Source of the DNA: a virus
Taxonomy: Duplodnaviria > Caudoviricetes
Strand: one strand, 5' to 3'
Length of the DNA stretch: 46,725 nucleotides
IMG/VR virus record: IMGVR_UViG_3300046062_000033
Span: 1-46,725 of that record
Both the position numbers and the translations under genes were made by a program. Shown here piece by piece: positions 1-46,725 of the stretch; position 1 is the first letter of the stretch; the number at the start of each line of letters is the position of its first letter. Under the pieces are notes generated by a model. That model did no database searches, was not told the DNA's origin, and saw only the letters and a program-made list of their open reading frames with translations.

Positions 1-98
1 CACCCACTTCCCGCCGCACGAATGCTATGTCGAAGCGTTCGCGGGGGGGGGGGCAGGGGTGCTCTACCACAAACCCCGGTCGAAGGTCGAAGTCTATA
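1..98. repeat. Terminal direct repeat, copy 1 (circularisation overlap)
   Basis: Identical to 46630-46725 except that the G tract is G11 here (43-53) and G9 there (46672-46680). Confidence 0.95.
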
Positions 99-763
99 AC
101 GACATAGCCGGCGGTGTGTGGAACTTTTTCGACGTCTTCGTTCGACGCACCGACGACCTCATCGACCGGCTTGACGACGTGTATCACGCGAAGGCTCAAT
201 ACGACGAATGGACCGACACGATCCCGGACGACGACGTCGAACGGGCCGCCCGGTTCTTCTTTTTCCGGTATGCGAACTGGGGGTCGAAGTTAGACCCCGC
301 CGGCTTCCGGCGTATGACGCACCGAAGCGTCGCCGACAACTTCCGCGACGCCGTCGACGCGCTCCCCGACAAGGCCGACCGCTTACACGGCGTCACGATC
401 GACCGGTTAGATTGGGCCGAATGCGTCGACAAATACGACGGCGACGACACGCTGTTCTATTTCGACCCGCCGTACGTCGCCGCCGGCGACGACCTGTACG
501 CCCACGACGACGACTTCGACCACGGCCGATTCGCCGACCGGCTACACGATATCGACGGCGATTGGGTCGTGTCGCTCGAACGCGTCCCCGACAGCTTCCC
601 TGAATACGACGCCGAAGCCACACGGGACACGAAAGACCGCGTGTCGAACGGACAAGAACCCGACCCGACGGAACGAACCGAACGGCTTTGTATGAGCTTC
701 GACCCCGCCGAACGCGCCCGGTTTACCGCCGCCGACCAAGCGTCGGTCGACGCGTTCAGATAA
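1..763 (+). CDS. Dam-like (D12 class) DNA adenine methyltransferase, main part; the gene starts at 46571 across the junction (~273 aa)
   Basis: YVEAFAGGGAGV SAM-binding motif I, EVYND, and catalytic FYFDPPY. In frame through G11. Ends in PIP-like DQASVDAF. Confidence 0.92.
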   Translation, partial: THFPPHECYVEAFAGGGAGVLYHKPRSKVEVYNDIAGGVWNFFDVFVRRTDDLIDRLDDVYHAKAQYDEWTDTIPDDDVERAARFFFFRYANWGSKLDPAGFRRMTHRSVADNFRDAVDALPDKADRLHGVTIDRLDWAECVDKYDGDDTLFYFDPPYVAAGDDLYAHDDDFDHGRFADRLHDIDGDWVVSLERVPDSFPEYDAEATRDTKDRVSNGQEPDPTERTERLCMSFDPAERARFTAADQASVDAFR

Positions 764-826
764 CCCACACCGACACCGATTACGGGGCGGCGAAGCGTTA
801 TCACGGTCGACCACCACGGTCCGGGT

Positions 827-1219
827 ATGTCGAGCGACGATAGTGACCGGTCGCGGGCACAAGTGATCGGGGGGTATGCCCGCACGATCGAAGACCCCGG
901 CGGGTCGAAGACGTACAGCTACGCCTACCTGACCGTGCTGTTCGCCGTGATCGTCGCCGGCCTCGCCGCCTCGATATACCTCGGGATCGTCACGCCGGAC
1001 GTCGACGTCACCGCGACGCTGTCGATCGGGTGGATTCTCGAATACACGGTCGCCGGGATCGTCGTCCTGTTCTTCTTTTGGACGGCCGCCCAGATCGCGA
1101 ACGTCGTCGGCATGAGTTTCGTCGGCGGCACGATCGGCCTCGTCGCCCGGATCGCCGACAACTACGAACTGCCGAACCAGGCCGACGCCGGCGGCGGTGG
1201 TGGCGACGACGAAGGTTGA
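827..1219 (+). CDS. Membrane protein with 2-3 TM segments (possible holin-like)
   Basis: Hydrophobic stretches YLTVLFAVIVAGLAASIYLGIV and VAGIVVLFFFWTAA. Confidence 0.7.
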   Translation: MSSDDSDRSRAQVIGGYARTIEDPGGSKTYSYAYLTVLFAVIVAGLAASIYLGIVTPDVDVTATLSIGWILEYTVAGIVVLFFFWTAAQIANVVGMSFVGGTIGLVARIADNYELPNQADAGGGGGDDEG

Positions 1220-1476
1220 TGGGTGGGCTATGGCCGCCGTCGCTCCCTGAATGGCATGCGTCGGTCGTCGGGTTCGGCGCCGGGTTCGCCTTCGGCGCGG
1301 CCGACGGCGATCGCGGCGTCTCACGGGCGTTCACGCGGGCCGTGTTCGTCGTCGACCACGACGCGGGCCACCTCGGCCACCTCGACGACGAAGCGGCGTA
1401 CGCCGCCGCGTGTTTCGTCTTAGGGTCGGTCGTCGGATCGCGGTTCGACACCGTCACGTCGAACGAACCCGGCTAA
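1219..1476 (+). CDS. Small membrane protein (85 aa, MGGLWPPSLPEWHA...)
   Basis: ATG overlaps the upstream TGA; two Gly/Ala-rich hydrophobic segments; ends 3 nt before TerL. Confidence 0.65.
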   Translation: MGGLWPPSLPEWHASVVGFGAGFAFGAADGDRGVSRAFTRAVFVVDHDAGHLGHLDDEAAYAAACFVLGSVVGSRFDTVTSNEPG

Positions 1477-1479
1477 ACC

Positions 1480-2940
1480 ATGTCGACGACGCGACTCACC
1501 GCGCCGGACGGCACACCGATATACGCCCCCGGCGCCGTCGACCTGTCGGACGACGACGTCGAACGCCTCCGGCGCGACGGCGCGGTCGTCGACGCCGGCG
1601 ACGGATCGATCGACATCACGTGGGCGTTCTGGAAACCACAACGGACCGCGCGGGCCGCCGTGTACTCGGGCGACCACGACCTCGTCGGGTTCGTCGCGGG
1701 CTTCCGGTCGGGCAAATCCGTGACCGGCGCGCGGGTCAGTATCGAAGTCGCGCTGCGGAACGACTTCGCGCCGGCCCGCGTCCTGGCGATGGGCAAGACG
1801 TACGCCGAAGCGAAGAAAACCACGTACCCGGTCCTGTTCGAAGAACTCCCCGGGAATAACTTGGACCCGTTTCTGGGCGATGGCGACCCGACGAATAGCC
1901 CGATCGTCAGGAGTTGGACGAAACAGGACGGCGTCATTACGCTGATTAACGGGTCGGTGATCATCCTGGCGTCGGCCGACAAGCCGAACCGGTACGACGG
2001 CGGGAAGTTTTCGTTCGCGTGGCTCGACGAAGCCGCCTATTACGACCACCTGAACGGGATACGGAAGACCGTCGGAGAACGCCTCGATTACAAACCCGTC
2101 GGGCCCCGCTGTATCCTCGTCACGACGACGGGCAACGGCTTCAATGATGCCTTTGACCTCCTCGAACGGAACGTCGATCCGGCCGACGACTCGCCGCTCG
2201 GCATCCGGACGACGCTCATTACGGCCTCGACGTCGAACAACCCGTTTTTGACGCCGGACGACCGCGACCGCCTGTCGCGGGTCCACGGCGGCACCGGGCG
2301 GGAAGGCCAGGCGTTGCACGGGTCGTTCGAAGCGACCGAAGGCCGGGTGTATTCGGCGTTCCGCCGGCATTCACACGTCGTCGACGTCGACCCGGACGGG
2401 TCGATCCCGGCGTACGACACCGCGATCGACGGCGACTGGCGGATATACGGATTCGACGCGGGGTGGGATAACCCCCGCGTGCTGCTCGAAGTCGCGAAGA
2501 CGCACGCCGGCCAGTACGTCGTCGTCGACGAATTCTACCGGTCCGAATCACACGTCGAAGATTTGGTCGGCGGCCCGAACCACGACACGTATTGGCTCGA
2601 AGGGAAGCCGAAGGGCCGGATTCACGCCGAGCACGAACCCGGCGATATTCAAAAGATGCGGCGTCGGGGGTGGAAGGCAGGGAAGGCGGAAAAGTCGGTC
2701 GACGCGGGGATCGACGAAGTCAGATATCGGCTTCGCGAAGATCACCACGGTCGCCCCGGGCTATTGGTCGCGTCGCGGTGTGAATCGACGATTAAGGAAC
2801 TATTGGGCTATACGGAAGACGACGTCGGCGGGTCGGACGTCGACGACCACGCCGTCGACGCCCTTAGATACTGCATCTATACTGAATCGGTACGGTCGTC
2901 GTCGGGTTCCGGCGGGTCGTCGACGGTCGACACGGCGTGA
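1480..2940 (+). CDS. terL: Terminase large subunit
   Basis: Walker A AGFRSGKS, Walker B AWLDEAAY, motif III TTTGNG, nuclease motifs GFDAGWDNP and DDHAVDALRY. Confidence 0.95.
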   Translation: MSTTRLTAPDGTPIYAPGAVDLSDDDVERLRRDGAVVDAGDGSIDITWAFWKPQRTARAAVYSGDHDLVGFVAGFRSGKSVTGARVSIEVALRNDFAPARVLAMGKTYAEAKKTTYPVLFEELPGNNLDPFLGDGDPTNSPIVRSWTKQDGVITLINGSVIILASADKPNRYDGGKFSFAWLDEAAYYDHLNGIRKTVGERLDYKPVGPRCILVTTTGNGFNDAFDLLERNVDPADDSPLGIRTTLITASTSNNPFLTPDDRDRLSRVHGGTGREGQALHGSFEATEGRVYSAFRRHSHVVDVDPDGSIPAYDTAIDGDWRIYGFDAGWDNPRVLLEVAKTHAGQYVVVDEFYRSESHVEDLVGGPNHDTYWLEGKPKGRIHAEHEPGDIQKMRRRGWKAGKAEKSVDAGIDEVRYRLREDHHGRPGLLVASRCESTIKELLGYTEDDVGGSDVDDHAVDALRYCIYTESVRSSSGSGGSSTVDTA

Positions 2941-3000
2941 ATACTTGTTCAATCACCGATATGCTTTTGCCGGTGTTGGTATAGTGAAAGAACGACACGT

Positions 3001-3782
3001 GTGACGCCGAAAGAATACCGGGAGCAAGCCGCGCATTCGGCTTGTGTTGATATATATAGCGTGGGGGGGGCGGCCCTTCGCCCCGGTATTATTGGCCGTT
3101 CAAGTTGGAACACGTCGGAACGGCACGGATGGGGACGCGAGAAACGTGCGACGTCTACATGATGGATAGCGGGATACGGAACGACGATATTACGAACGAA
3201 GACGTGTTAGACGCTGCCGAAACGTACGGCGCGGATTACGTTATTCCGAAAGATTATTTGAATGACCAATATAAAACGACGCAAAGCGTACACGAATTTC
3301 TTGACATATATCGATCGCATTCGTGCGACGCGGAGTATCTGATACCATTACAACCGCCGCACGACAGGCACTTCGAAGATTTCAAACAGTACGATACGTT
3401 CGCCTTGGGCGGTATCGCGAAGAAGCCGCCGTCGGCGCAACTCGATTATATACGGAAGTTCCGCGACGTGGCGGGCGACGACGTCTATGTTCACATCCTG
3501 GGGTTGGGGGCAAGCCGGGAATTGATCGACGCCTTTCGAACCGATCCGGGGTTTGTTGACAGTATCGATACGTCGACGCCCGTGAACGCCCCGAAGCATG
3601 GGGAAATACCCGACGCGACGTTCATACAGAACCGACAGAAGTTCCAAATCCCGGCGGGTGATGGGTCGTCGACGGGACACGCGATAGCGTGCGAATTCAT
3701 CTTATGGGAAATGGCACAGATGCTAAACCCGGATTGGTCGTCGGCCGAAGATAAAAACCAATCGGGGTTAACCGACTTCTAA
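3001..3782 (+). CDS. TGT-fold (DpdA-like) guanine transglycosylase, frameshifted at a G8 tract (3063-3070)
   Basis: Motifs MDSG, PKD, IPLQ, ALGG, VHILGLG and DSIDTSTP. The N-terminus (GTG 3001, MTPKEYRE...DIYSV) is in another frame, and the catalytic frame is closed by TAG at 3057-3059. G6 or G9 would fuse the two. Ends in PIP-like NQSGLTDF. Lower GC than the flanks. Confidence 0.8.
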
Positions 3783-4255
3783 TGCCGACGCACGTGATCG
3801 TCGGGTGCGGCAAATCCAAACGGGACGGCCCGACCGAAGCCCGCGACCTATACACCGCGAACTACCGAAAACCGATTAAGAAATACGCCCGTGTCGTCGG
3901 CGACTTCGACTATATCTTTAGCGCCAAGCACGGTATCATTCCCGGCGACCTTGTTATCGAACCGTATGACGTTCGTGCGTCGGACGTCCCCGACGACGTC
4001 TTGCGCGACCGGGTCGACGACACCATCGACGACGGCGGTCCCGGTAATAGGTGGTCGCGTGTCGATCGCGTGGTCGTGTGTGCCGGGATGGATTACGTCG
4101 AACCGACCCGCGACATTTTCGAAGACCGCATCGACGCCGACGCCGACTTCCCGTTTCAGGACGTCGAGGGGATGGTCGGGAACGGGGCACAAGCGGCGTG
4201 GTGTAAGCAACGGGTCGCCGACGTGACGAACGCGGGTGTCGACGAGTATTTGTAG
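3782..4255 (+). CDS. DUF6884/YaaA-like protein
   Basis: IVGCGKSK...ARDLYT...IFSAKHG...IEPYD signature; translationally coupled to the TGT-like gene. Confidence 0.75.
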   Translation: MPTHVIVGCGKSKRDGPTEARDLYTANYRKPIKKYARVVGDFDYIFSAKHGIIPGDLVIEPYDVRASDVPDDVLRDRVDDTIDDGGPGNRWSRVDRVVVCAGMDYVEPTRDIFEDRIDADADFPFQDVEGMVGNGAQAAWCKQRVADVTNAGVDEYL

Positions 4256-6841: not shown

Positions 6842-7879
6842 ATGGATTTGAATACCGTACCGTTAGAAGATGCCGACCATACCCGGGTCGACCGGCTCGT
6901 CGACGGAAACGTGTTCTCCCGGAGTGAAGCCGAAGCCGTCGTCCGGTTCGCGAAACTCGACCGCGACGACCGCGACCCCGACATGGTGCGGGCGTACGTC
7001 CGGCCCAACCGCGACGACTCGGCTGTCGAAGACGGCCTGACCGCCGACGACTGTGCGGCGATTCGCCGCGACATGGATTCGGCGCACCGGCCGACGACGG
7101 TGATCGACGCCTGGGCGACGCACCCGTCGGTGATCTTCCGGCACGCGACCGGGCGGTGCGGCCACGACGCCGCCGTCGCCCCGACGACGTCGCCGCGCAT
7201 CCGGTCGGACGAATGCCGCGAAATGCGGGTCGACGTACAAACGGGCGGCACCGTCGAAGACGTCCGCGCGACGTACAACCGGTCGGCGAACGCGGTCGTC
7301 AACCACGTGTTCGGGCGGTGCGACCACGACTTCGACCACGACCGTCGCGGCCGGGGGCTGTCGACGTCGGTGTGTGTCCGGATGCGGCGGGCCTACCGGG
7401 AGCACACGGCGGCGTCGATCGCGGATATCTCGCGGGCCTTCATCGTCGGGGTTTCAACCGCGCATCGACACCTCACCGGGGCGTGTGGGAACCGTGACGA
7501 CGTCGAAGCGCCGATCGACTCGAACGGGCCGACCCCGATCACGGACGCCGAATGCAACGGGATGCGGGCCGCCTACGGCGACGACGACGCGCCGGCGGCG
7601 ATCGCCGCCGACCACGACCGCGACCAAACCGCCGTCCGCCGCCACGTCTTCGGGCGGTGCCGGCACGGCACCTCAACGTACGCACCGTCGCGGGACGCCG
7701 TCGGCCCGGACCGGTGTGCACGGATTCGATCGACGTATCGAACGCGGGGCGACGACTCGGTCGCGTCGTGTATCGACCGTGTAGGCGTGACGAAGGGCAC
7801 GTTTTACTTTCATCTAAAAGGGGAGTGTTCGCACGACCACGGCGTCGACGCGGTCGTCGTCGCCGCAGACAAACCTTAA
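6842..7879 (+). CDS. Protein with five tandem Cys/His-clamped HTH-like repeats
   Basis: Five units of Cxx(M/I)R-x(~25)-HxxGxCx(H/N). Confidence 0.8.
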   Translation: MDLNTVPLEDADHTRVDRLVDGNVFSRSEAEAVVRFAKLDRDDRDPDMVRAYVRPNRDDSAVEDGLTADDCAAIRRDMDSAHRPTTVIDAWATHPSVIFRHATGRCGHDAAVAPTTSPRIRSDECREMRVDVQTGGTVEDVRATYNRSANAVVNHVFGRCDHDFDHDRRGRGLSTSVCVRMRRAYREHTAASIADISRAFIVGVSTAHRHLTGACGNRDDVEAPIDSNGPTPITDAECNGMRAAYGDDDAPAAIAADHDRDQTAVRRHVFGRCRHGTSTYAPSRDAVGPDRCARIRSTYRTRGDDSVASCIDRVGVTKGTFYFHLKGECSHDHGVDAVVVAADKP

Positions 7880-28830: not shown

Positions 28831-29400
28831 TCACTCGGCGATGTTGACGACCGCGATGCCGTCGGGGTCGGTGACGACGATCGGCGACGTCACCGACGGC
28901 GTCCGATCCATCCCGACGAAGACGGTCCGGGTGTCGACGGGGACGCGACCGACGGCCGCAACGTCGACCAACACGATGCAGTTCGACGGAACGGCGTCGA
29001 CCCGTTCGACGAGATACCCGTCGATCGCCGGCAGGAACGGGTCGGCCGCGTCGGCGTTGTCGTACGCGGCGGCGTCGTCGCATCGGTCGGCGGCGGTGTC
29101 GCCGGCGAAGAACGCCGCCCCATCCGGCTGTCCGTCGACTTCGTCGCCGTACAGGTCGGTCTTGGACAGGCCGGTCGACGCGTAGCCGTTCTGCCCGAGC
29201 CGGTGGAGTGCGTCGCGGAGGTGTCGGACGTCGAAGCTGTCGACGAAGGCTTCGGTCGCCGCGCCGTCGATGATGGTGTGCCACATGGCCGACCGCATGG
29301 CCGTCCCGACGTCGTCGTCGAACGACGTGACGAGCGATTCGGCGGGCGGGTCGACGTCGGTCGCGGCCAAGAAGTCGTGGAAGGTGTCGTCACCCGTCAT
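28831..29400 (-). CDS. Hypothetical protein, possibly resembling an HK97/encapsulin A-domain
   Basis: ATG overlaps the TFB stop; IDGYLVERVDAVPSNCIVLVD and DPDGIAVV. Confidence 0.6.
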   Translation of the reverse strand: MTGDDTFHDFLAATDVDPPAESLVTSFDDDVGTAMRSAMWHTIIDGAATEAFVDSFDVRHLRDALHRLGQNGYASTGLSKTDLYGDEVDGQPDGAAFFAGDTAADRCDDAAAYDNADAADPFLPAIDGYLVERVDAVPSNCIVLVDVAAVGRVPVDTRTVFVGMDRTPSVTSPIVVTDPDGIAVVNIAE

Positions 29401-30449
29401 GGGCCGACGCCTTCGGACACTAAGCGGTCGATCAAATAATCGCGGTCGGGTGTCATGCCGACGTCGACGTCGTGGTCGGCGGCGAGTTGTTTCAGGTCGT
29501 TGTAGGCGACGTCGTCGAATCGGGTGCGGTCGCGCCACTCGCGAACGTCGGTCACGCGGTTTACGACGGTCGATTTCGACACGCCGGCCGTGTCCGCGAC
29601 GTCGGTTTGGGAGACGTCGACGCGGGCGTCGGTCGCGGCGACGTAAACGACGCCGGCGGCGACGCCGGTCGGGTCGGTGCCGTCGACGAAGCCGGCGTCG
29701 GCGTCGATCGCGGCGTCGACGACGCCGACGGCGTCGGCCCGTACCCGGGCGGGCAGGCCGTCGATGCGGTCGCATAGGTCGTTCACCGCTGCCGTGATGG
29801 CGTCGGGGTCGCCGGGGGCGACGGCGTCGTCGCGACAGGCAAGGACGTCGCGGTACTGGTTTCGAACTGTCGTGACGACGACGTTCGCAGCGGCGGCGAC
29901 GTCGTCCTGTTCGACGTCGGCGTTCCGGTAGGTCGACGTTGCATAGACGACCGCTGCCGCGAATCCCGAGACGGATTTGCCGACGTGGACGCCGGCGGCG
30001 ACGGCGTCGTGGCACACCGCGACGGCGTCGGTTTCGAACGCGGGGTCGACGTCCAGGTCGTCGCAAATCCGTCGGACCCAGTCGGCCGGGTCTTCGGGTT
30101 CGACGGTGTAGGGAAGCGCCGAAAGTACGCGGTGGTAGATCGACACGACGGCGTCTTCGTCGACGTCGCGGTCGACGGGGTCGACGACGTCGGCGGGCTT
30201 GGTCGGAATGTCGCGAACGCGGGCTGCCGCGTAGACGGCTGCCGGGAACGCCGCTGCCGGGTAGCGTCGGGCGTCGCCGCTGAAGCGGCCGGCGCCGTCG
30301 CGTTCGGGCCCGGCGGCGATCACGCCGGCCTCGACGGCGTGGTCGAAGCACGTGACGGCCATGTCGCCGATCGTGTCGTCGAACCCGGCGTCGCGGGCGA
30401 TCCGCCGGAGGACTGTTGCGTACTCGTCGTCGGTCGCCGGTCGTGGCAT
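29397..30449 (-). CDS. tfb: TFB/TFIIB-like protein with three cyclin repeats and no Zn ribbon
   Basis: AAVYAAAR; GKSVSGFAAAVVY...EQDDVAAAANVVVTTVRNQY; GTDPTGVAAGVVY...SQTDVADTAGVSKSTV. Confidence 0.88.
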   Translation of the reverse strand: MPRPATDDEYATVLRRIARDAGFDDTIGDMAVTCFDHAVEAGVIAAGPERDGAGRFSGDARRYPAAAFPAAVYAAARVRDIPTKPADVVDPVDRDVDEDAVVSIYHRVLSALPYTVEPEDPADWVRRICDDLDVDPAFETDAVAVCHDAVAAGVHVGKSVSGFAAAVVYATSTYRNADVEQDDVAAAANVVVTTVRNQYRDVLACRDDAVAPGDPDAITAAVNDLCDRIDGLPARVRADAVGVVDAAIDADAGFVDGTDPTGVAAGVVYVAATDARVDVSQTDVADTAGVSKSTVVNRVTDVREWRDRTRFDDVAYNDLKQLAADHDVDVGMTPDRDYLIDRLVSEGVGP

Positions 30450-30534
30450 GACGGTCGACGGTAGGCGGACCGGCGGGAAAAGTATGTCGCTACTACACCA
30501 ACACATCGTATCACAAAACGGATAGAAGACACGA

Positions 30535-30553
30535 ACCGGCATTCTATGCCGGT
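30535..30553. promoter_or_regulatory. Perfect 8-bp inverted repeat in the divergent promoter region
   Basis: ACCGGCAT-TCT-ATGCCGGT. Confidence 0.45.
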
Positions 30554-34226: not shown

Positions 34227-35030
34227 ATGCCAGACTCACACCACGACACGGCGGTCGAAACGATCGTCGACGCCGACCTATGGACTGCCGTTTGCGACGG
34301 CGTCAACGGGATCGCGTCCCGACCCGAAGCGGCGTTCGAATTCGACAACGACGGGCTTCGCGTCCGGGTGCGGGAAGCCGCGAACGTCGCGATGATCGCC
34401 CAAACCGTCCCGGCCGACGCGTTCGACCACTACACGGTCGACGGCGACGTCACGATCGGGCTCAACACCGACACGTTCGCCGACCTCTTGGGCGTCGCCG
34501 ACGGCGACGACCCCGTCGCGTTCGATTTGAACGCCGAAACCCGGAAACTCGAATTCGAATCGCGCGGCGTCGAATACGACCTCGCCGGCATCAACCCGGA
34601 CGCGATGACCGGGACGCCGACCGACGTCCCGGCGGTCGACGACGAGTACGCGTGGACGATCGACGTCGACCTACCGGTCGAGTTGTGGGATCGCGGCACC
34701 GACGTCGCCGACCTTGCCGGGAGCGACACCGGGACGTTCGTCTACGACCCGGACACCGGCGACGTCGTGCTGGAAGGGGCGGGCGATACCGACGCGTCGC
34801 GGGTCGTGCTGTCGGACGCCGACGCGTTCGCGTGGCGGGACGGCCCGCCCGACGACCGCGTCGAATGCGTACAGTCGAACGACTATATGCCGAGCGTGAT
34901 CGACGTGATCGACGAAGACGTCGTGCGCTTCGTCACCGGCACGGAACTCCCGTATCACGTCTTCACCGAGCGGGCCGACGGCCGGATCGACACGAAATTA
35001 CTACAAGCCCCCCGGATCACCAGCGGGTAA
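34227..35030 (+). CDS. pcn: PCNA sliding clamp
   Basis: GLRVRVREAANVAM, AFDHY, IGLN and ETRKL, plus C-terminal LQAPRI, all matching haloarchaeal PCNA. Confidence 0.9.
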   Translation: MPDSHHDTAVETIVDADLWTAVCDGVNGIASRPEAAFEFDNDGLRVRVREAANVAMIAQTVPADAFDHYTVDGDVTIGLNTDTFADLLGVADGDDPVAFDLNAETRKLEFESRGVEYDLAGINPDAMTGTPTDVPAVDDEYAWTIDVDLPVELWDRGTDVADLAGSDTGTFVYDPDTGDVVLEGAGDTDASRVVLSDADAFAWRDGPPDDRVECVQSNDYMPSVIDVIDEDVVRFVTGTELPYHVFTERADGRIDTKLLQAPRITSG

Positions 35031-35252
35031 ATGGTCGAGTACGACGTCGTGCCGGTCGCGCTGGCGGCCGTCGGCATGGCCGGACTCGTCGCGTTCGTCG
35101 TCGGCGCGTCGGCGCTGGCCGGCCAACACGGCGGCGTGTGGGCCGGCGTGACGACGACGGGCGCGTTCCTCATCGTCGCCGCCGTCACGCTCCTCTACGC
35201 CGTCGGTACGGTCGACGACCGGCCACGCGAGGACCGACGATGGGGCCGATAA
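35031..35252 (+). CDS. Small two-TM membrane protein
   Basis: Two long hydrophobic segments. Confidence 0.65.
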   Translation: MVEYDVVPVALAAVGMAGLVAFVVGASALAGQHGGVWAGVTTTGAFLIVAAVTLLYAVGTVDDRPREDRRWGR

Positions 35253-35701
35253 TGTACCACGTCGAGGACTTCGACGACCTCCGCGACCGGCTCCCGCCCC
35301 GGGCCGCCGTGGTCGCGGCGGCCGTCCTACCCGCCCTGCCCGACAACGAATGCCTCGTCAGAATTCACTACCGGCCCCGATACGACCGTCCCGGCGACAC
35401 GGCGGCGTTCAAACGGCGGTGCCCGGCGCTTGCCGGCACCCGGCTTCGACGCGTCGAATTCGACGTCGACGCGGCCGCCGGCACGGCCGTCGAACTGACG
35501 CCGTCGCCGCACGCGATCCGGTCGTATTTGCTCGGCCCGGGGGACTTCGACATGTTCTACATCGGGGCCGACCCGGACTTCGACGATGCCGACCAAACCG
35601 CCCTGTCGGACTATGGCGTCACGCCCTCGCCGATCGACGCCGTCGACCGTGGCGTACGCACCGACGACACGTTCGACCGGCAGCCGATCGTGCCCGTCTA
35701 A
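35252..35701 (+). CDS. Hypothetical protein with a PIP-like motif
   Basis: TAATG overlap; MYHVEDFDD...; DQTALSDY near the C-terminus. Confidence 0.6.
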   Translation: MYHVEDFDDLRDRLPPRAAVVAAAVLPALPDNECLVRIHYRPRYDRPGDTAAFKRRCPALAGTRLRRVEFDVDAAAGTAVELTPSPHAIRSYLLGPGDFDMFYIGADPDFDDADQTALSDYGVTPSPIDAVDRGVRTDDTFDRQPIVPV

Positions 35702-35717: not shown

Positions 35718-35767
35718 CCGACACAATTATGACCCCGGCGCGTGAACGGCTCGGTATGGTGCGACCC
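35718..35767 (+). promoter_or_regulatory. Repeated promoter/start cassette
   Basis: CCGACACAATTAT...GTGAACGG...GGTATGGTGCGACCC with the same 29-nt spacing. Confidence 0.7.
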
Positions 35768-37279
35768 ACGTCTGGCGACCGTATCGACGTCACGACCGAC
35801 GACCGAACCGTCACGGGCACCGTCGTCGACACCACAACCAGCTACATCACGACCGACGGCGGCGACGGCACGCACAAAGCGGACGTCGTGTCGTTCGACC
35901 GCGACGACGGCCACCGAATGAAGGTCTTCGACCACGACGCCGCAAGCGAGTACGACGACGCGGTCGACCTTTACACGACCCGGGGCGGCGTCGGGAACGG
36001 GCCGAAAGCGATCGTCGCGACCGACGTCGACGTCACCGTCACCGCCGTCGACGACGGCTTCACCCCGACCGACGACGTCGACCTTCGCGACGTCGACGCC
36101 GGCGACACCGTTGAATTCAGGACGTCAGACGGCGTTACCCGGTCCCGAACCGTCGCCGTCGTCGATACCGACAGACACGACCGAACCACGGTGGCGTTCG
36201 ACGACCCCGCCGACACCCGCATTCGTGATTCGTTCAAGGCGTGCGAACGGATCGACCAAGTCGACGGGCCGGGCGGCGTCACCTACATGGAAGGCGACAT
36301 AGCCGAACCGGAATACGATATGTTCGGCGTCGTCGGCATTCGCGTTCCCGAACCCGGCGTCGTCACGGACGGCGGCGACGACATTATCGTTGCCGACGAC
36401 GACGGCGTGATCCTCGACGACACCTGCGGCGAGCGTGGGCCGAACGGCGAACGGTGTGCCCGCGACGCCGGCCACGCCGGCCCGCACGCGGCGGGCTTCC
36501 CGGAGGACGCCGGCCGCCGCCCCGACCCCGAACCCCGACGCGTGTGGGACGACCGCGTCGACCCCGACGACGAGGGCGTCGAAATACTGTCCGACGGCGG
36601 CGTGCCGTACCGCGACCACGACGGCCCGGTATGTCGCGACTGCGGCACCCCGATCCACCGGCCGGACACGACCACGAAATGCGAGGCGTGCGGGACCATC
36701 GACCCCGACGGGATCGCCGTGTCGATCGCCGACTTCGAACGCGACGACCGCCGGTGTGACGGGGGCCGCCCGCCGCTCTCGACACACCCCGGCCCGCCGG
36801 ACGTCGACCCGTGCCGCGACTGTGGCCGGTACGCCCCACACCCCTTCGACCACGACCCGGCCTGTCCACAGTTCCGCCCGATCGACCACGAACCCGACGT
36901 TACCGACACCCCGTCGCCGGCGACGAACGGTGGCATGGAACACTCCCCGACCGACCGGTCGCCGGAAGCCCTGGCGTCGCGTATCGTCGCGGCCGACGTC
37001 GGCGACCGCGCGATCGTGCACGCCGACGGCGGTCGTGGGAAGGTCCTGATATACGACGGCGACGTCGTCGCGACCGACTACCATCGCGCCGTCGGCGGCG
37101 TCGGCGGCACCCACGTCGTCACGATCGACGTCCCCGACCGCCACGGCCACGTCGCCGTGCAGTTCGACCGCGACGTCGACCGCGACCGCATGGCCGTCAC
37201 CGAACCATCCCCCGTCGTCTACGACCCCGAGAGGGACGCACAGTTGGCCGTGACGGGCTTTGCCGTCGCGGACGAGTGA
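35756..37279 (+). CDS. Multidomain mosaic hypothetical protein (SH3-like modules and Zn fingers)
   Basis: Modules separated by TDGG/SDGG linkers; CGE..C..GHAGPH, CRDC..CEAC and CRDC..H..C. Confidence 0.7.
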   Translation: MVRPTSGDRIDVTTDDRTVTGTVVDTTTSYITTDGGDGTHKADVVSFDRDDGHRMKVFDHDAASEYDDAVDLYTTRGGVGNGPKAIVATDVDVTVTAVDDGFTPTDDVDLRDVDAGDTVEFRTSDGVTRSRTVAVVDTDRHDRTTVAFDDPADTRIRDSFKACERIDQVDGPGGVTYMEGDIAEPEYDMFGVVGIRVPEPGVVTDGGDDIIVADDDGVILDDTCGERGPNGERCARDAGHAGPHAAGFPEDAGRRPDPEPRRVWDDRVDPDDEGVEILSDGGVPYRDHDGPVCRDCGTPIHRPDTTTKCEACGTIDPDGIAVSIADFERDDRRCDGGRPPLSTHPGPPDVDPCRDCGRYAPHPFDHDPACPQFRPIDHEPDVTDTPSPATNGGMEHSPTDRSPEALASRIVAADVGDRAIVHADGGRGKVLIYDGDVVATDYHRAVGGVGGTHVVTIDVPDRHGHVAVQFDRDVDRDRMAVTEPSPVVYDPERDAQLAVTGFAVADE

Positions 37280-42615: not shown

Positions 42616-43176
42616 ATGCGAACCCTCACCGCGTTCGACGTCGACACCGACGCGCTCGCCGACACGTTCGACCGGATGGCCGACGGGCTTCGGTCCGACG
42701 ACGTCCTGGTCGAACGCCTCGAATCCGGACACGTCGCCGACGCCGGCGACCACAGCGAATTCCGGTTCGACATGGAATTCAAAACGACGCACGGCTTCGT
42801 CGACGTCACCGACCCGATAGCATACGACGCAAACCACTACCTTCGCTTCACCGACGACCGCGTCACCCCGATCCTGTCGGGAGAAAAGTTCGCGACGGTT
42901 CGCGTCGGCTTCGAACGCGACTTCGACGTCGGCGACGTCGTCGACCTCATCGACGACGACCGCGACAAATTCGCCGACGCGACCATTGAGTCGATCCGGC
43001 AGGCATCAATTCTTGAACTGTCTAACGACCTTCGCGGGGTATCGGCGACGTCGATGCAGCAACTTATCCGAACGCTGAACGACCATTACGACGACGTCGA
43101 CAAGCGAACGACCGCGACCGCGTTCCGGTTCCAGGTCCGGGACGGGCCCGACAACCCGGACGGGAGCGACGAATGA
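42616..43176 (+). CDS. ASCH-domain protein
   Basis: LRF...PILSGEKFATVR...FDVGD...FADATI in the C-terminal half. Confidence 0.8.
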   Translation: MRTLTAFDVDTDALADTFDRMADGLRSDDVLVERLESGHVADAGDHSEFRFDMEFKTTHGFVDVTDPIAYDANHYLRFTDDRVTPILSGEKFATVRVGFERDFDVGDVVDLIDDDRDKFADATIESIRQASILELSNDLRGVSATSMQQLIRTLNDHYDDVDKRTTATAFRFQVRDGPDNPDGSDE

Positions 43177-44930: not shown

Positions 44931-45445
44931 TGCCCTCGACCCACCAATCCGGTCGCGACACCGAGTACCCGACCGACGCCCACCGCATGATCGCCACGAA
45001 AAACGACCTCACGATCGCGGCGCTAATCAGGGGGATTCGGGACCCCGACCGGGCACAGGCGTACATCGACGCGGAAATCGAGGTAGCCGACGCCGACGAC
45101 CGCGACGTCCGAAAGTCCATAATCGGGGCGTGCAACCGACGGAAGATCGCGTTATCGGACGCACACGCCGGCGTGACCGACGCCGGCGCCGACGCGGGCG
45201 ATACTCCGGCCGGCGACGCGGACGACGACACGGCGGCACACGACCGGCCTAACGGCGACGACAGCGACGATGCCGACGACCCGTACCCGGGCGCCCCTCG
45301 GTTCGACTCGAAGCGCGCGCTGTCGACGGCGGTCGCCGGCCACGACCACGCCGGCGTGTTCACCGTCGCAAAACCCGTCGGGACGGTCGCCGGGTGCGTC
45401 GACTGTGACACCTATATCGGCGTCGACCCCCGCGACGACGACTAA
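44930..45445 (+). CDS. Hypothetical protein
   Basis: TAATG overlaps at both ends. Confidence 0.6.
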   Translation: MPSTHQSGRDTEYPTDAHRMIATKNDLTIAALIRGIRDPDRAQAYIDAEIEVADADDRDVRKSIIGACNRRKIALSDAHAGVTDAGADAGDTPAGDADDDTAAHDRPNGDDSDDADDPYPGAPRFDSKRALSTAVAGHDHAGVFTVAKPVGTVAGCVDCDTYIGVDPRDDD

Positions 45446-46512
45446 TGCCGGCGACCACGCCCGACGGGATACCGCTCACGCCCGACGTCCCCGACGCGCT
45501 CGCGACGCCACCCGGCGTCCCCCGCGACACGACGACGTGGATCGGTGACCGCCCGAGCGAATCCGACGGCGACCGTCTACGGTATGCCCTGTTCTCCGGC
45601 GGGGACGATTCGCTATCGATGGTTCACCACGTCATGTCGCGAATGGACGCCGATGCCGTCCTGTACCTGAACACGAACACGGGGCTTGCGGACACCTATC
45701 GATACGTCGTCGACGTCTGCCGCCGGTTCGAGTGGCCCCTCCGCGTCGAACGGTCGCCCGTGTCGCTCGCCGAACTCGGCATGACGTACGGGTTCCCCGG
45801 GTCGGCGTACCACACCGTCGCCTACGCCTACTTGAAGGAACGGCAACTGTCGGCGATCGCGGGCGAATACGACGGCCCGCCGACCTACGTCACGGGCGTT
45901 CGGAAGCACGAATCCGACCGGCGAATGACGACCGTGCCCGACGACCGCCGGTCGACCGGGGAGGGCGGTCGGTGGACGTGGGTGCAACCGATCCGGGGAT
46001 GGACCGACGGCGACGTCGTCGACTACCGCGAGTGCCACGGCTTGCCCCGGAACCCGGTCGCGGCGGCGATGCACCGGTCGGGTGACTGTTACTGTGGGGC
46101 GTTCGCCCACCGCGACGAACTCCTCGTCGACCTCCGGTCGAACGGGTACGACCGCCACGCGACGTGGCTGTTGGCCGTCGAAGCCCGCGTCCAAATCTAT
46201 CGCGGGCGGCTCGCGGTATTCGAACGCCGGTACCCGGACGAATGGGCGGCCGTCGACGACCGTCGCGACGACTGTACCCCGAAGCCGATGCGGCTCTCGG
46301 TCGCCCGCGAGGTGGCCCCCGACGCCGCCGCCGACATTGACGCGATCGGTCGCGACGACGCCCTCGCCGTCGGTCGTGACGACGCACGAAACTATTGGGG
46401 ACACGGCGATATGGCGAACGACGAACTCCGGGCGCTGGTCGCCGAACACGACGTCGGACAGGCCGAATTATGCCAGTTCTGCGACGGCGGCGGTGGTCGC
46501 CCCGACGAGTAG
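45445..46512 (+). CDS. PAPS reductase-family (PP-loop) protein
   Basis: FSGGDDS PP-loop, TGVRKHESDRR, PIRGWT..DV and SGDCYCGAF. Confidence 0.88.
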   Translation: MPATTPDGIPLTPDVPDALATPPGVPRDTTTWIGDRPSESDGDRLRYALFSGGDDSLSMVHHVMSRMDADAVLYLNTNTGLADTYRYVVDVCRRFEWPLRVERSPVSLAELGMTYGFPGSAYHTVAYAYLKERQLSAIAGEYDGPPTYVTGVRKHESDRRMTTVPDDRRSTGEGGRWTWVQPIRGWTDGDVVDYRECHGLPRNPVAAAMHRSGDCYCGAFAHRDELLVDLRSNGYDRHATWLLAVEARVQIYRGRLAVFERRYPDEWAAVDDRRDDCTPKPMRLSVAREVAPDAAADIDAIGRDDALAVGRDDARNYWGHGDMANDELRALVAEHDVGQAELCQFCDGGGGRPDE

Positions 46513-46570: not shown

Positions 46571-46725
46571 ATGGCGAACGGGTTTTTCCCATACCCGGGC
46601 GGCAAAGCCCAATACGCCGAGTGGATATACACCCACTTCCCGCCGCACGAATGCTATGTCGAAGCGTTCGCGGGGGGGGGCAGGGGTGCTCTACCACAAA
46701 CCCCGGTCGAAGGTCGAAGTCTATA
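46571..46725 (+). CDS. 5' end of the Dam-like methyltransferase; this copy has G9 and is out of frame
   Basis: MANGFFPYPGGKAQYAEWI...YVEAFAG (motif X and motif I). With G9 the frame reads ...SL and then meets TA(A) at the window end. Confidence 0.88.
   Translation, partial: MANGFFPYPGGKAQYAEWIYTHFPPHECYVEAFAGGGRGALPQTPVEGRSL
46630..46725. repeat. Terminal direct repeat, copy 2
   Basis: Matches 1-98 minus two Gs. Confidence 0.95.

What the first reader, a model, noticed from the sequence alone, without database searches (positions are those of the whole stretch)
734..4255. Modification enzymes carry C-terminal PIP-box-like motifs and the virus encodes its own PCNA
Seen: the methyltransferase ends DQASVDAFR, the TGT-like protein NQSGLTDF and the DUF6884-like protein TNAGVDEYL (degenerate). 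The PAPS-reductase-like protein has GQAELCQF near its end, the 35252-35701 protein has DQTALSDY, and PCNA is at 34227-35030. Known: archaeal PCNA partners use a C-terminal Qxx(L/I/V)xx(F/Y) PIP motif. Inference: since no viral polymerase was recognised, the viral clamp may mainly act as a platform that brings modification enzymes to newly replicated viral DNA.
Basis: partly seen in the sequence, partly recalled or inferred. Interest (0 to 1): 0.8.

Follow-up and report, generated by a model that had tools for sequence, protein, structure and literature searches.

The report
Clamp-docking tails on viral DNA modifiers
Three DNA-modification proteins of this salt-loving archaeal virus end in a short tail that is conserved in many relatives and likely docks them on the DNA sliding clamp, either the host's or the virus's own, so that newly copied viral DNA would be modified quickly; two of these genes also carry runs of G that may switch them on and off.

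Summary
The motifs are in the sequence. A strict QxxhxxF/Y lies in the last 20 residues of 3 of 4 modification proteins, 0 of 17 structural and 1 of 29 other proteins. The Dam-like and DpdA-like tails are conserved in relatives, and DUF6884 relatives carry canonical ones. The PAPS-reductase motif is a conserved QxxLCxxC, and the 35252 motif is internal in an orphan protein. The viral PCNA keeps its PIP pocket and is predicted to bind the DpdA tail there (0.81 against a best control of 0.02; textbook pair).

The inference that the viral clamp is mainly a platform for modification enzymes is not supported. The same tails occur in genomes with only one PCNA match and in two viruses with no detectable PCNA, and PCNA-encoding haloviruses are not richer in tails (1 of 8 against 2 of 7). 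Non-halophilic relatives often end in beta-clamp-like tails instead.

An unplanned finding: the only homopolymers of 8 or more bases are G-runs in the Dam-like gene (11 and 9 G in the two contig-end copies) and the DpdA-like gene (8 G, frameshifted). These are candidate on/off switches; variation in reads is not shown.

The parts
2..763 (+). Dam-like (D12 class) adenine methyltransferase, body of the gene; C-terminal PIP-like QASVDAF at 737-757
   Evidence: Pfam PF02086 E 7e-10; PHROG 56; tail conserved in 10 of 19 closest relatives strictly, 15 of 19 as Qxxh core
46571..46725 (+). 5' end of the same methyltransferase; window end 46630-46725 repeats the window start, so the genome is circular or permuted
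   Evidence: tblastn of P0403 and P0021
43..53 (+). G11 run in methyltransferase motif I (in frame, one Gly more than 16 aligned relatives)
46672..46680 (+). Same site in the end copy, G9, frameshifted
   Evidence: a source-run contig over 1-92 shows 2 gaps
3001..3070 (+). True N-terminal part of the DpdA-like gene, in another frame, ending in a G8 run (3063-3070) where the frame shifts
   Evidence: tblastn of P0272 (60% over residues 3-34, E 8e-8) and P0005
3060..3782 (+). DpdA-like (TGT-fold) DNA guanine transglycosylase; C-terminal PIP QSGLTDF at 3759-3779
   Evidence: HRTV-29 DpdA E 9e-20, hhalign 100%; Foldseek TGT and DpdA 7UI4; tail pLDDT under 50 alone; predicted in the PCNA pocket
3782..4255 (+). 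DUF6884 (YaaA-like) protein, partner of the DpdA-like protein; degenerate tail NAGVDEY at 4229-4249
   Evidence: PF21818 E 2e-17; fused to DpdA in P0004-P0006; cellular relatives end in QSTIGSF-type tails
34227..35030 (+). Viral PCNA, about 30-34% identical to host-type clamps, PIP-pocket segments retained
45445..46512 (+). PAPS-reductase-like protein; QAELCQFC at 46459-46482 is a conserved QxxLCxxC, PIP role doubtful
   Evidence: PF01507
35252..35701 (+). Orphan ORF next to PCNA with internal QTALSDY (35594-35614); not shown to belong to the system

Best explanation
The Dam-like methyltransferase, the DpdA-like transglycosylase and DUF6884 end in short tails that are likely true PIP boxes and would tether these enzymes to PCNA on newly replicated viral DNA, using host or viral clamp alike. 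Shown: the motifs, their enrichment and conservation, the TGT fold, and the retained pocket segments of the viral PCNA. Predicted: the DpdA tail sits in the canonical pocket of the viral PCNA. Inferred: the virus is copied by host polymerase and loaded by host RFC, since none of its own was recognised. Clamp tethering would concentrate post-replicative adenine methylation and 7-deazaguanine insertion (host-made precursor, as no synthesis genes were found) behind the fork, protecting progeny DNA from restriction. The tail appears to be a general trait of these mobile-element enzyme families, matched to the host's clamp type, and not an adaptation to the viral PCNA. The viral PCNA is more likely a general supplement of clamp for viral replication that the enzymes can also ride.
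For: Enrichment in the genome. DpdA family: strict motif in the last 25 aa of 31 of 149 representatives against 1.1% of internal windows; Qxxh core 65 of 149 against 12.4%. Dam relatives: 10 of 19 strict, 15 of 19 core, on a tail after the last conserved segment. DUF6884-DpdA fusions carry a PIP-like tail at the fusion's end (P0004-P0006). DpdA+DUF6884 pairs with PIP on both proteins in G038, G175, G361, G369, each with one PCNA match; 18 of 24 DpdA-bearing genomes have one match. HRTV-29 and HCTV-2 lack PCNA (HFTV1 as positive control) yet have QTSLGG, QAGFEAY, QASLGGY tails. Motif swap: 0 of 95 distant Dam relatives have a strict PIP but 59 of 95 end in LF/LL; 7 of 7 lysine-rich viral DUF6884 relatives end QRKLF, matching the beta-clamp motif as I recall it. 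Complex model: score 0.81, best control 0.02; the mark was reached by 116 of 157 solved and 2 of 215 mismatched pairs; runs agree in at least 82% of contacts; partner pLDDT at least 57; contacts are PCNA 49, 52-56, 131-135, 240-242, 259-266 with tail 231-240.
Against: No binding was measured. The complex is a textbook pair and may pass by likeness to solved structures; host PCNA and the other tails were not modelled. Most family members lack the strict motif (118 of 149 DpdA-like). Among the 30 best Dam loci from haloarchaeal genomes only 1 is strict, 12 have the core, and 14 have no tail by eye. The four cellular pairs have near-identical tails and count as about one lineage. HRTV-29 DUF6884 has no tail. 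DpdA chemistry and Dam activity are inferred from family membership only, and the DpdA gene is frameshifted in this assembly.
Confidence: 0.68

Rival explanations
1. The viral PCNA is mainly a dedicated platform that recruits the virus's own modification enzymes, preferring their tails over host partners.
For: Pocket retained and predicted to bind the DpdA tail. No viral polymerase recognised. This genome has more tailed enzymes than any of the six named viruses examined. In G008 and G212 a second PCNA lies within about 9 and 24 kb of a DpdA homologue. T4 alpha-glucosyltransferase interacts with the phage clamp gp45 (PMC6024577, passage).
Against: Tails occur without viral PCNA. PCNA-positive viruses: 1 of 8 modification enzymes with a strict tail, and CGphi46 has PCNA but no annotated modification enzyme. 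The tails look like ordinary host-type PIP boxes. PCNA lies about 10 kb from the modification cluster.
Confidence: 0.17
2. The tails are inherited, now functionless remnants or chance matches in acidic disordered termini.
For: Patchy conservation. One non-modification protein of the window also matches (35729-37279), as do 5 of 366 other proteins in named viruses. My classes were assigned after seeing the motifs.
Against: About 18-fold enrichment over internal windows. Retention across 40-70% diverged relatives and in three unrelated families. The switch to LF-type tails in non-halophilic relatives.
Confidence: 0.1
3. The tails bind PCNA, but their main effect is to compete host partners off the host clamp, with the viral PCNA making up for the loss.
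For: Phage Mu protein C has a clamp-binding motif and is proposed to deplete the clamp when overexpressed (bioRxiv 10.1101/2025.01.04.631326, passages).
Against: The tails sit on full-length enzymes whose substrate is DNA, and the same pairs reside in cellular genomes.
Confidence: 0.05

Closest known systems
Archaeal C-terminal PIP motif proteins (NucS, NreA, PolD, PolY)
   Same: QxxhxxF/Y at the extreme C-terminus on an unstructured tail; consensus QXXhXXaa (PMC4929162, first third of the text read; PMC7776575, passages).
   Different: Here on virus and mobile-element base-modification enzymes; one aromatic residue only; not reported for these families in my searches.
T4 alpha-glucosyltransferase with the phage clamp gp45
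   Same: A viral post-replicative DNA-modifying enzyme linked to a sliding clamp (PMC6024577, passage citing Sommer 2004).
   Different: T4 encodes its whole replisome and loader; this virus has only a stand-alone PCNA and three unrelated enzyme families.
HRTV-29 DpdA with YaaA-like neighbour (Dpdavirus)
   Same: Same DpdA subfamily, adjacent DUF6884/YaaA-like gene, PAPS reductase and a methyltransferase, no preQ0 synthesis genes (PMC8651126, passages).
   Different: HRTV-29 has MCM and no PCNA, opposite gene order, and no G-runs.
Stand-alone PCNA of haloviruses (phiH1, phiCh1, HSTV-1, HFTV1, CGphi46)
   Same: PCNA homologue at 27-34% identity; the role of clamps without a viral polymerase is named as an open question (PMC4889955, passages).
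   Different: HSTV-1, HFTV1 and phiH1 encode MCM or RepH; none was recognised here. Their modification enzymes mostly lack strict tails.
Phage contingency loci (T2 agt)
   Same: A homopolymer in a viral DNA-modification gene giving frameshifts (PMC12633550, passages).
   Different: G-runs in an archaeal virus, in two genes; reversibility is not shown here.

Membership tests
PIP-box proteins | Qxx[LIMV]xx aromatic consensus | tested here: met
   Dam-like and DpdA-like match; DUF6884 has N for Q; none has the second aromatic residue
PIP-box proteins | Motif on an exposed, unstructured terminus | tested here: met
   DpdA 231-240 pLDDT under 50; Dam tail follows the last conserved segment. Not met for the 35252 protein
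PIP-box proteins | Conservation among homologues | tested here: met
   partial, a minority strict in distant relatives
PIP-box proteins | Physical binding in the PCNA pocket | not testable with these tools
   Only a model for the DpdA tail with viral PCNA
PIP-box proteins (PAPS-reductase-like protein) | Aromatic residue at position 7 conserved | tested here: inconclusive
   Phe in 8 of 103 QxxhCxxC homologues but 8 of 9 among the closest; 33 of 36 long-tailed homologues have a separate Qxxh core further on
PCNA | Two-domain clamp sequence with PIP-pocket segments | tested here: met
   Full-length match to 3HI8 and 1RWZ; AANVAM, linker, ELP and APRI segments align
PCNA | Trimeric ring loaded by RFC | not tested
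   No loader recognised in the genome
DpdA DNA-guanine transglycosylases | TGT barrel fold | tested here: met
   Foldseek TGT E about 1e-7, DpdA 7UI4 E 6e-7; invariant DSG, PxD, HxxG and SxD segments
DpdA DNA-guanine transglycosylases | Score above the curated DpdA family cut-off | tested here: not met
   NF041059 15 bits against cut-off 200; no DUF6610/DpdA4 match. It groups with HRTV-29 DpdA
DpdA DNA-guanine transglycosylases | 7-deazaguanine in the viral DNA | not testable with these tools
   Needs LC-MS of virion DNA
Contingency (phase-variable) loci | Homopolymer in the coding 5' region that sets the frame | tested here: met
Contingency (phase-variable) loci | Several tract lengths in one population or among close relatives | tested here: inconclusive
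   11 and 9 G in one contig's two ends; low-depth contig with 2 gaps; off-frame start of P0002/P0401 implies another length, DNA not seen; an assembly error is not excluded
Contingency (phase-variable) loci | Reversible high-frequency switching | not testable with these tools
   Needs deep reads or a cultured virus

The most novel reading that the evidence does not exclude
This virus runs a switchable, clamp-coupled epigenome: poly-G slippage turns Dam methylation and 7-deazaguanine insertion on and off independently, and the stand-alone viral PCNA is the preferred carrier of the enzymes. More widely, mobile-element base-modification enzymes carry clamp-docking tails that switch between PIP and beta-clamp type with the host domain.
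Probability: 0.22. Interest if true: 0.78.

Novelty: new variant of a known kind. Interest (0 to 1): 0.52.

Why it matters
The role of viral PCNA genes without a viral polymerase is a stated open question (PMC4889955), and this genome gives a direct test: one clamp, three tailed enzymes, and relatives without the clamp. If the tails work as predicted, clamp tethering is a general way for mobile-element modification enzymes to reach newly made DNA before restriction does, and a C-terminal tail becomes a cheap marker for unknown DNA-acting proteins such as DUF6884 and the viral PAPS-reductase-like family. The G-runs, if real switches, would extend phage contingency loci to a DpdA gene and to an archaeal virus.

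Tried and rejected
Viral-contig scans with the DpdA-like protein and with PCNA as single queries found no relatives. A DNA pattern for a G-rich motif I found nothing in viral contigs. No RNA holder was listed. Read-level evidence for the end-copy G-run is lacking, so allele shares are unknown.

I asked whether tailless cellular Dam relatives sit in restriction systems and tailed ones in proviruses. Pfam on 74 of 99 neighbouring ORFs gave a mixed picture (integrase, MCM lid, other methylases and an HNH near tailed; Cdc6-like, GmrSD, PIN and transposase near tailless), so no rule.

The 35252 protein has no usable homologue, so its motif cannot be tested. G-runs are not a family trait: none in the 30 cellular and 78 viral Dam loci, the 34 DpdA hits (several the same gene) or the 73% identical relative L003. 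The phiH1 G10 has the same length in both records and phiCh1 lacks it, so it gives no evidence of switching.

The SIRV2-PCNA paper (Gardner 2014, recalled) is not held. Six literature searches listed no paper on PIP tails of haloviral modification enzymes; subscription journals are mostly missing and no supplements were read.
Full report
Setting. The window is a whole 46.7 kb virus record with terminase, portal, capsid and tail genes, acidic proteins and about 65% GC. Its reads come from a halite metagenome that may be its source. It is a haloarchaeal tailed virus. The last 96 bases repeat the start, so the order across the junction is PAPS-reductase-like, Dam-like methyltransferase, membrane protein, large terminase, DpdA-like, DUF6884. 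PCNA lies at 34227-35030. Pfam on 45 plus 75 ORFs and PHROGs on 27 recognised no polymerase, helicase, primase, clamp loader or preQ0 synthesis gene; remote homologues could be missed.

Observation. All motifs are present. In 50 hand-delimited genes the strict pattern Qxx[LIVM]xx[FY] lies in the last 20 residues of 3 of 4 modification proteins, 0 of 17 structural and 1 of 29 others, against one internal match in 10,761 residues; Fisher p = 0.0008, or 0.014 without the PAPS protein. The classes were set after I had seen the finding. The 35252 motif is 28 residues from the end of an orphan protein. The PAPS motif is QxxhCxxC in 103 of 119 homologues, mostly with Ser, Thr, Asn or Asp at the aromatic position, which points to a metal-binding pair (inference). 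Two facts keep a PIP role open there: 8 of the 9 closest motif-bearing relatives have Phe, and 33 of 36 longer relatives carry a separate Qxxh tail.

Identity of the enzymes. The TGT-like protein matches the HRTV-29 protein annotated DpdA. Its model (pLDDT 81.5) matches TGT structures and DpdA 7UI4, though it is far below the NCBIfam DpdA cut-off. Liu et al. suggest HRTV-29 uses host preQ0 (PMC8651126, passages), and Cui et al. describe DpdA insertion as post-replicative (10.1101/2023.04.13.536721, passages). DUF6884 is fused to it in three homologues and adjacent in HRTV-29.

Conservation of the tails. DpdA family: 31 of 149 representatives (best 150 of 239, the window's own left out) have the strict motif, Trp allowed, in the last 25 residues against 1.1% of internal windows; the Qxxh core occurs in 65 of 149 against 12.4%. 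Dam: 10 of the 19 closest relatives are strict and 15 have the core; of 95 more distant ones none is strict and 59 end in LF or LL. Seven of seven lysine-rich viral DUF6884 relatives end in QRKLF, which fits the bacterial beta-clamp motif as I recall it. Against this, the 30 best Dam loci from 73 of 401 haloarchaeal genomes give 1 strict, 12 core and 14 tailless, so the tail is optional in the family.

Which clamp. The viral PCNA is 30-34% identical to host-type clamps and keeps the segments that form the PIP pocket. The DpdA tail was predicted in that pocket: score 0.81, best control 0.02, runs agreeing in at least 82% of contacts, partner pLDDT at least 57; 116 of 157 solved and 2 of 215 mismatched pairs reach the mark. 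This is a textbook pair, so it shows compatibility and not preference. The tails do not need a viral clamp. DpdA-like genes were found in 24 of 401 haloarchaeal genomes, 18 of which have one PCNA match. Four of these carry DpdA and DUF6884 side by side, both with canonical tails (about one lineage). A PCNA profile finds HFTV1 but not HRTV-29 or HCTV-2, which still have tailed enzymes. Over six named viruses (phiH1 half, HRTV-29 35 of 37 kb), a slightly wider pattern marks 3 of 15 annotated modification enzymes against 5 of 366 other proteins (p = 0.0025): 1 of 8 in PCNA-positive and 2 of 7 in PCNA-negative viruses. Some PCNA-positive methylases have degenerate tails that the pattern misses, and G008 and G212 have a second PCNA near DpdA, so a link is not excluded.

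Mechanism. Most likely host polymerase and RFC copy the viral DNA, and clamps on the new duplex recruit the methyltransferase and the DpdA-DUF6884 pair by their tails, giving early protection from restriction (inferred, 0.68). The dedicated-platform reading gets 0.17, remnant or chance 0.10, clamp sequestration 0.05.

G-runs. The only homopolymers of 8 or more bases are G11 at 43-53 and G9 at 46672-46680 (one site, two copies) and G8 at 3063-3070. Relatives show that the DpdA gene starts in the frame at 3001 and shifts at the run, and that the methyltransferase shifts at G9. G11 adds one glycine to motif I relative to the aligned relatives. A source-run contig over 1-92 has 2 gaps at depth 3.7 against 9.3 next to it, while G8 lies ungapped in a 12 kb contig. 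A relative at 87% identity was called from the third frame in two assemblies (P0002, P0401), implying another off-frame length; its DNA was not seen. By simulation 20% of genomes of this composition have two or more such runs, and the chance that both fall in the four modification genes is 0.005. Relatives usually encode the glycines without runs. This fits contingency loci like T2 agt (PMC12633550, passages), but sequencing error at G-runs or plain gene decay remain possible; I put switching at about 0.45. Unchecked earlier notes of this scan describe similar runs in other viral methyltransferases, which lowers novelty and is not evidence.

Comparison and verdict. Known parts: C-terminal PIP boxes in archaea (PMC4929162, first third read; PMC7776575, passages), T4 glucosyltransferase with gp45 (PMC6024577, passage), a plasmid methyltransferase acting with Pol I (PMC7736820, passages), stand-alone viral PCNA as an open question (PMC4889955, passages); DNMT1-PCNA is recalled. 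Searches listed no report of PIP tails on these haloviral enzymes. New variant of a known kind, interest 0.52.

Noticed in passing
window 43-53, 46672-46680, 3063-3070: The genome's only homopolymers of 8 or more bases are G-runs that set the frame of the Dam-like and DpdA-like genes; candidate phase-variation switches.
   Followed up: partly
L203:21071-21080 (phiH1, MK002701): G10 run, the only run of 8 or more in the 29 kb fetched, in an in-frame leader of the methylase yhdJ/dcm4; same length in X80164, absent in phiCh1.
   Followed up: yes
P0272: A DpdA relative whose sequence derails after PGGGG near its C-terminus, possibly another G-run frameshift; DNA not seen.
   Followed up: no
P0025, P0404, P0403 (one 90% cluster): Full-length and N-terminally truncated forms of a close Dam relative in one cluster; cause unknown.
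   Followed up: partly
L190-L196; L019-L096: Non-halophilic viral DUF6884 proteins end in QRKLF and many phage Dam proteins in QPxGLF-like tails, suggesting beta-clamp docking.
   Followed up: partly
L003:3199-4878: A related virus carries two Dam-like genes in tandem, both ending in canonical PIP tails.
   Followed up: partly
window 29397-30542 (-): Virus-encoded TFIIB-like protein on the opposite strand (Pfam TFIIB E 1e-23).
   Followed up: no
window 35729-37279: Unknown 516 aa protein ending QLAVTGFAVADE, the one non-modification strict match; probably chance.
   Followed up: no
window 42616-43176: ASCH-domain protein; ASCH-like genes also lie near a DpdA homologue in L097.
   Followed up: no
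window 6842-7879: Protein with repeated helix-turn-helix-like units ending in H..G.C.H motifs, no family match.
   Followed up: no
L097, L098: One 40 kb contig of a Halobacteriales genome holds two nearly identical DpdA-like copies about 34 kb apart.
   Followed up: no
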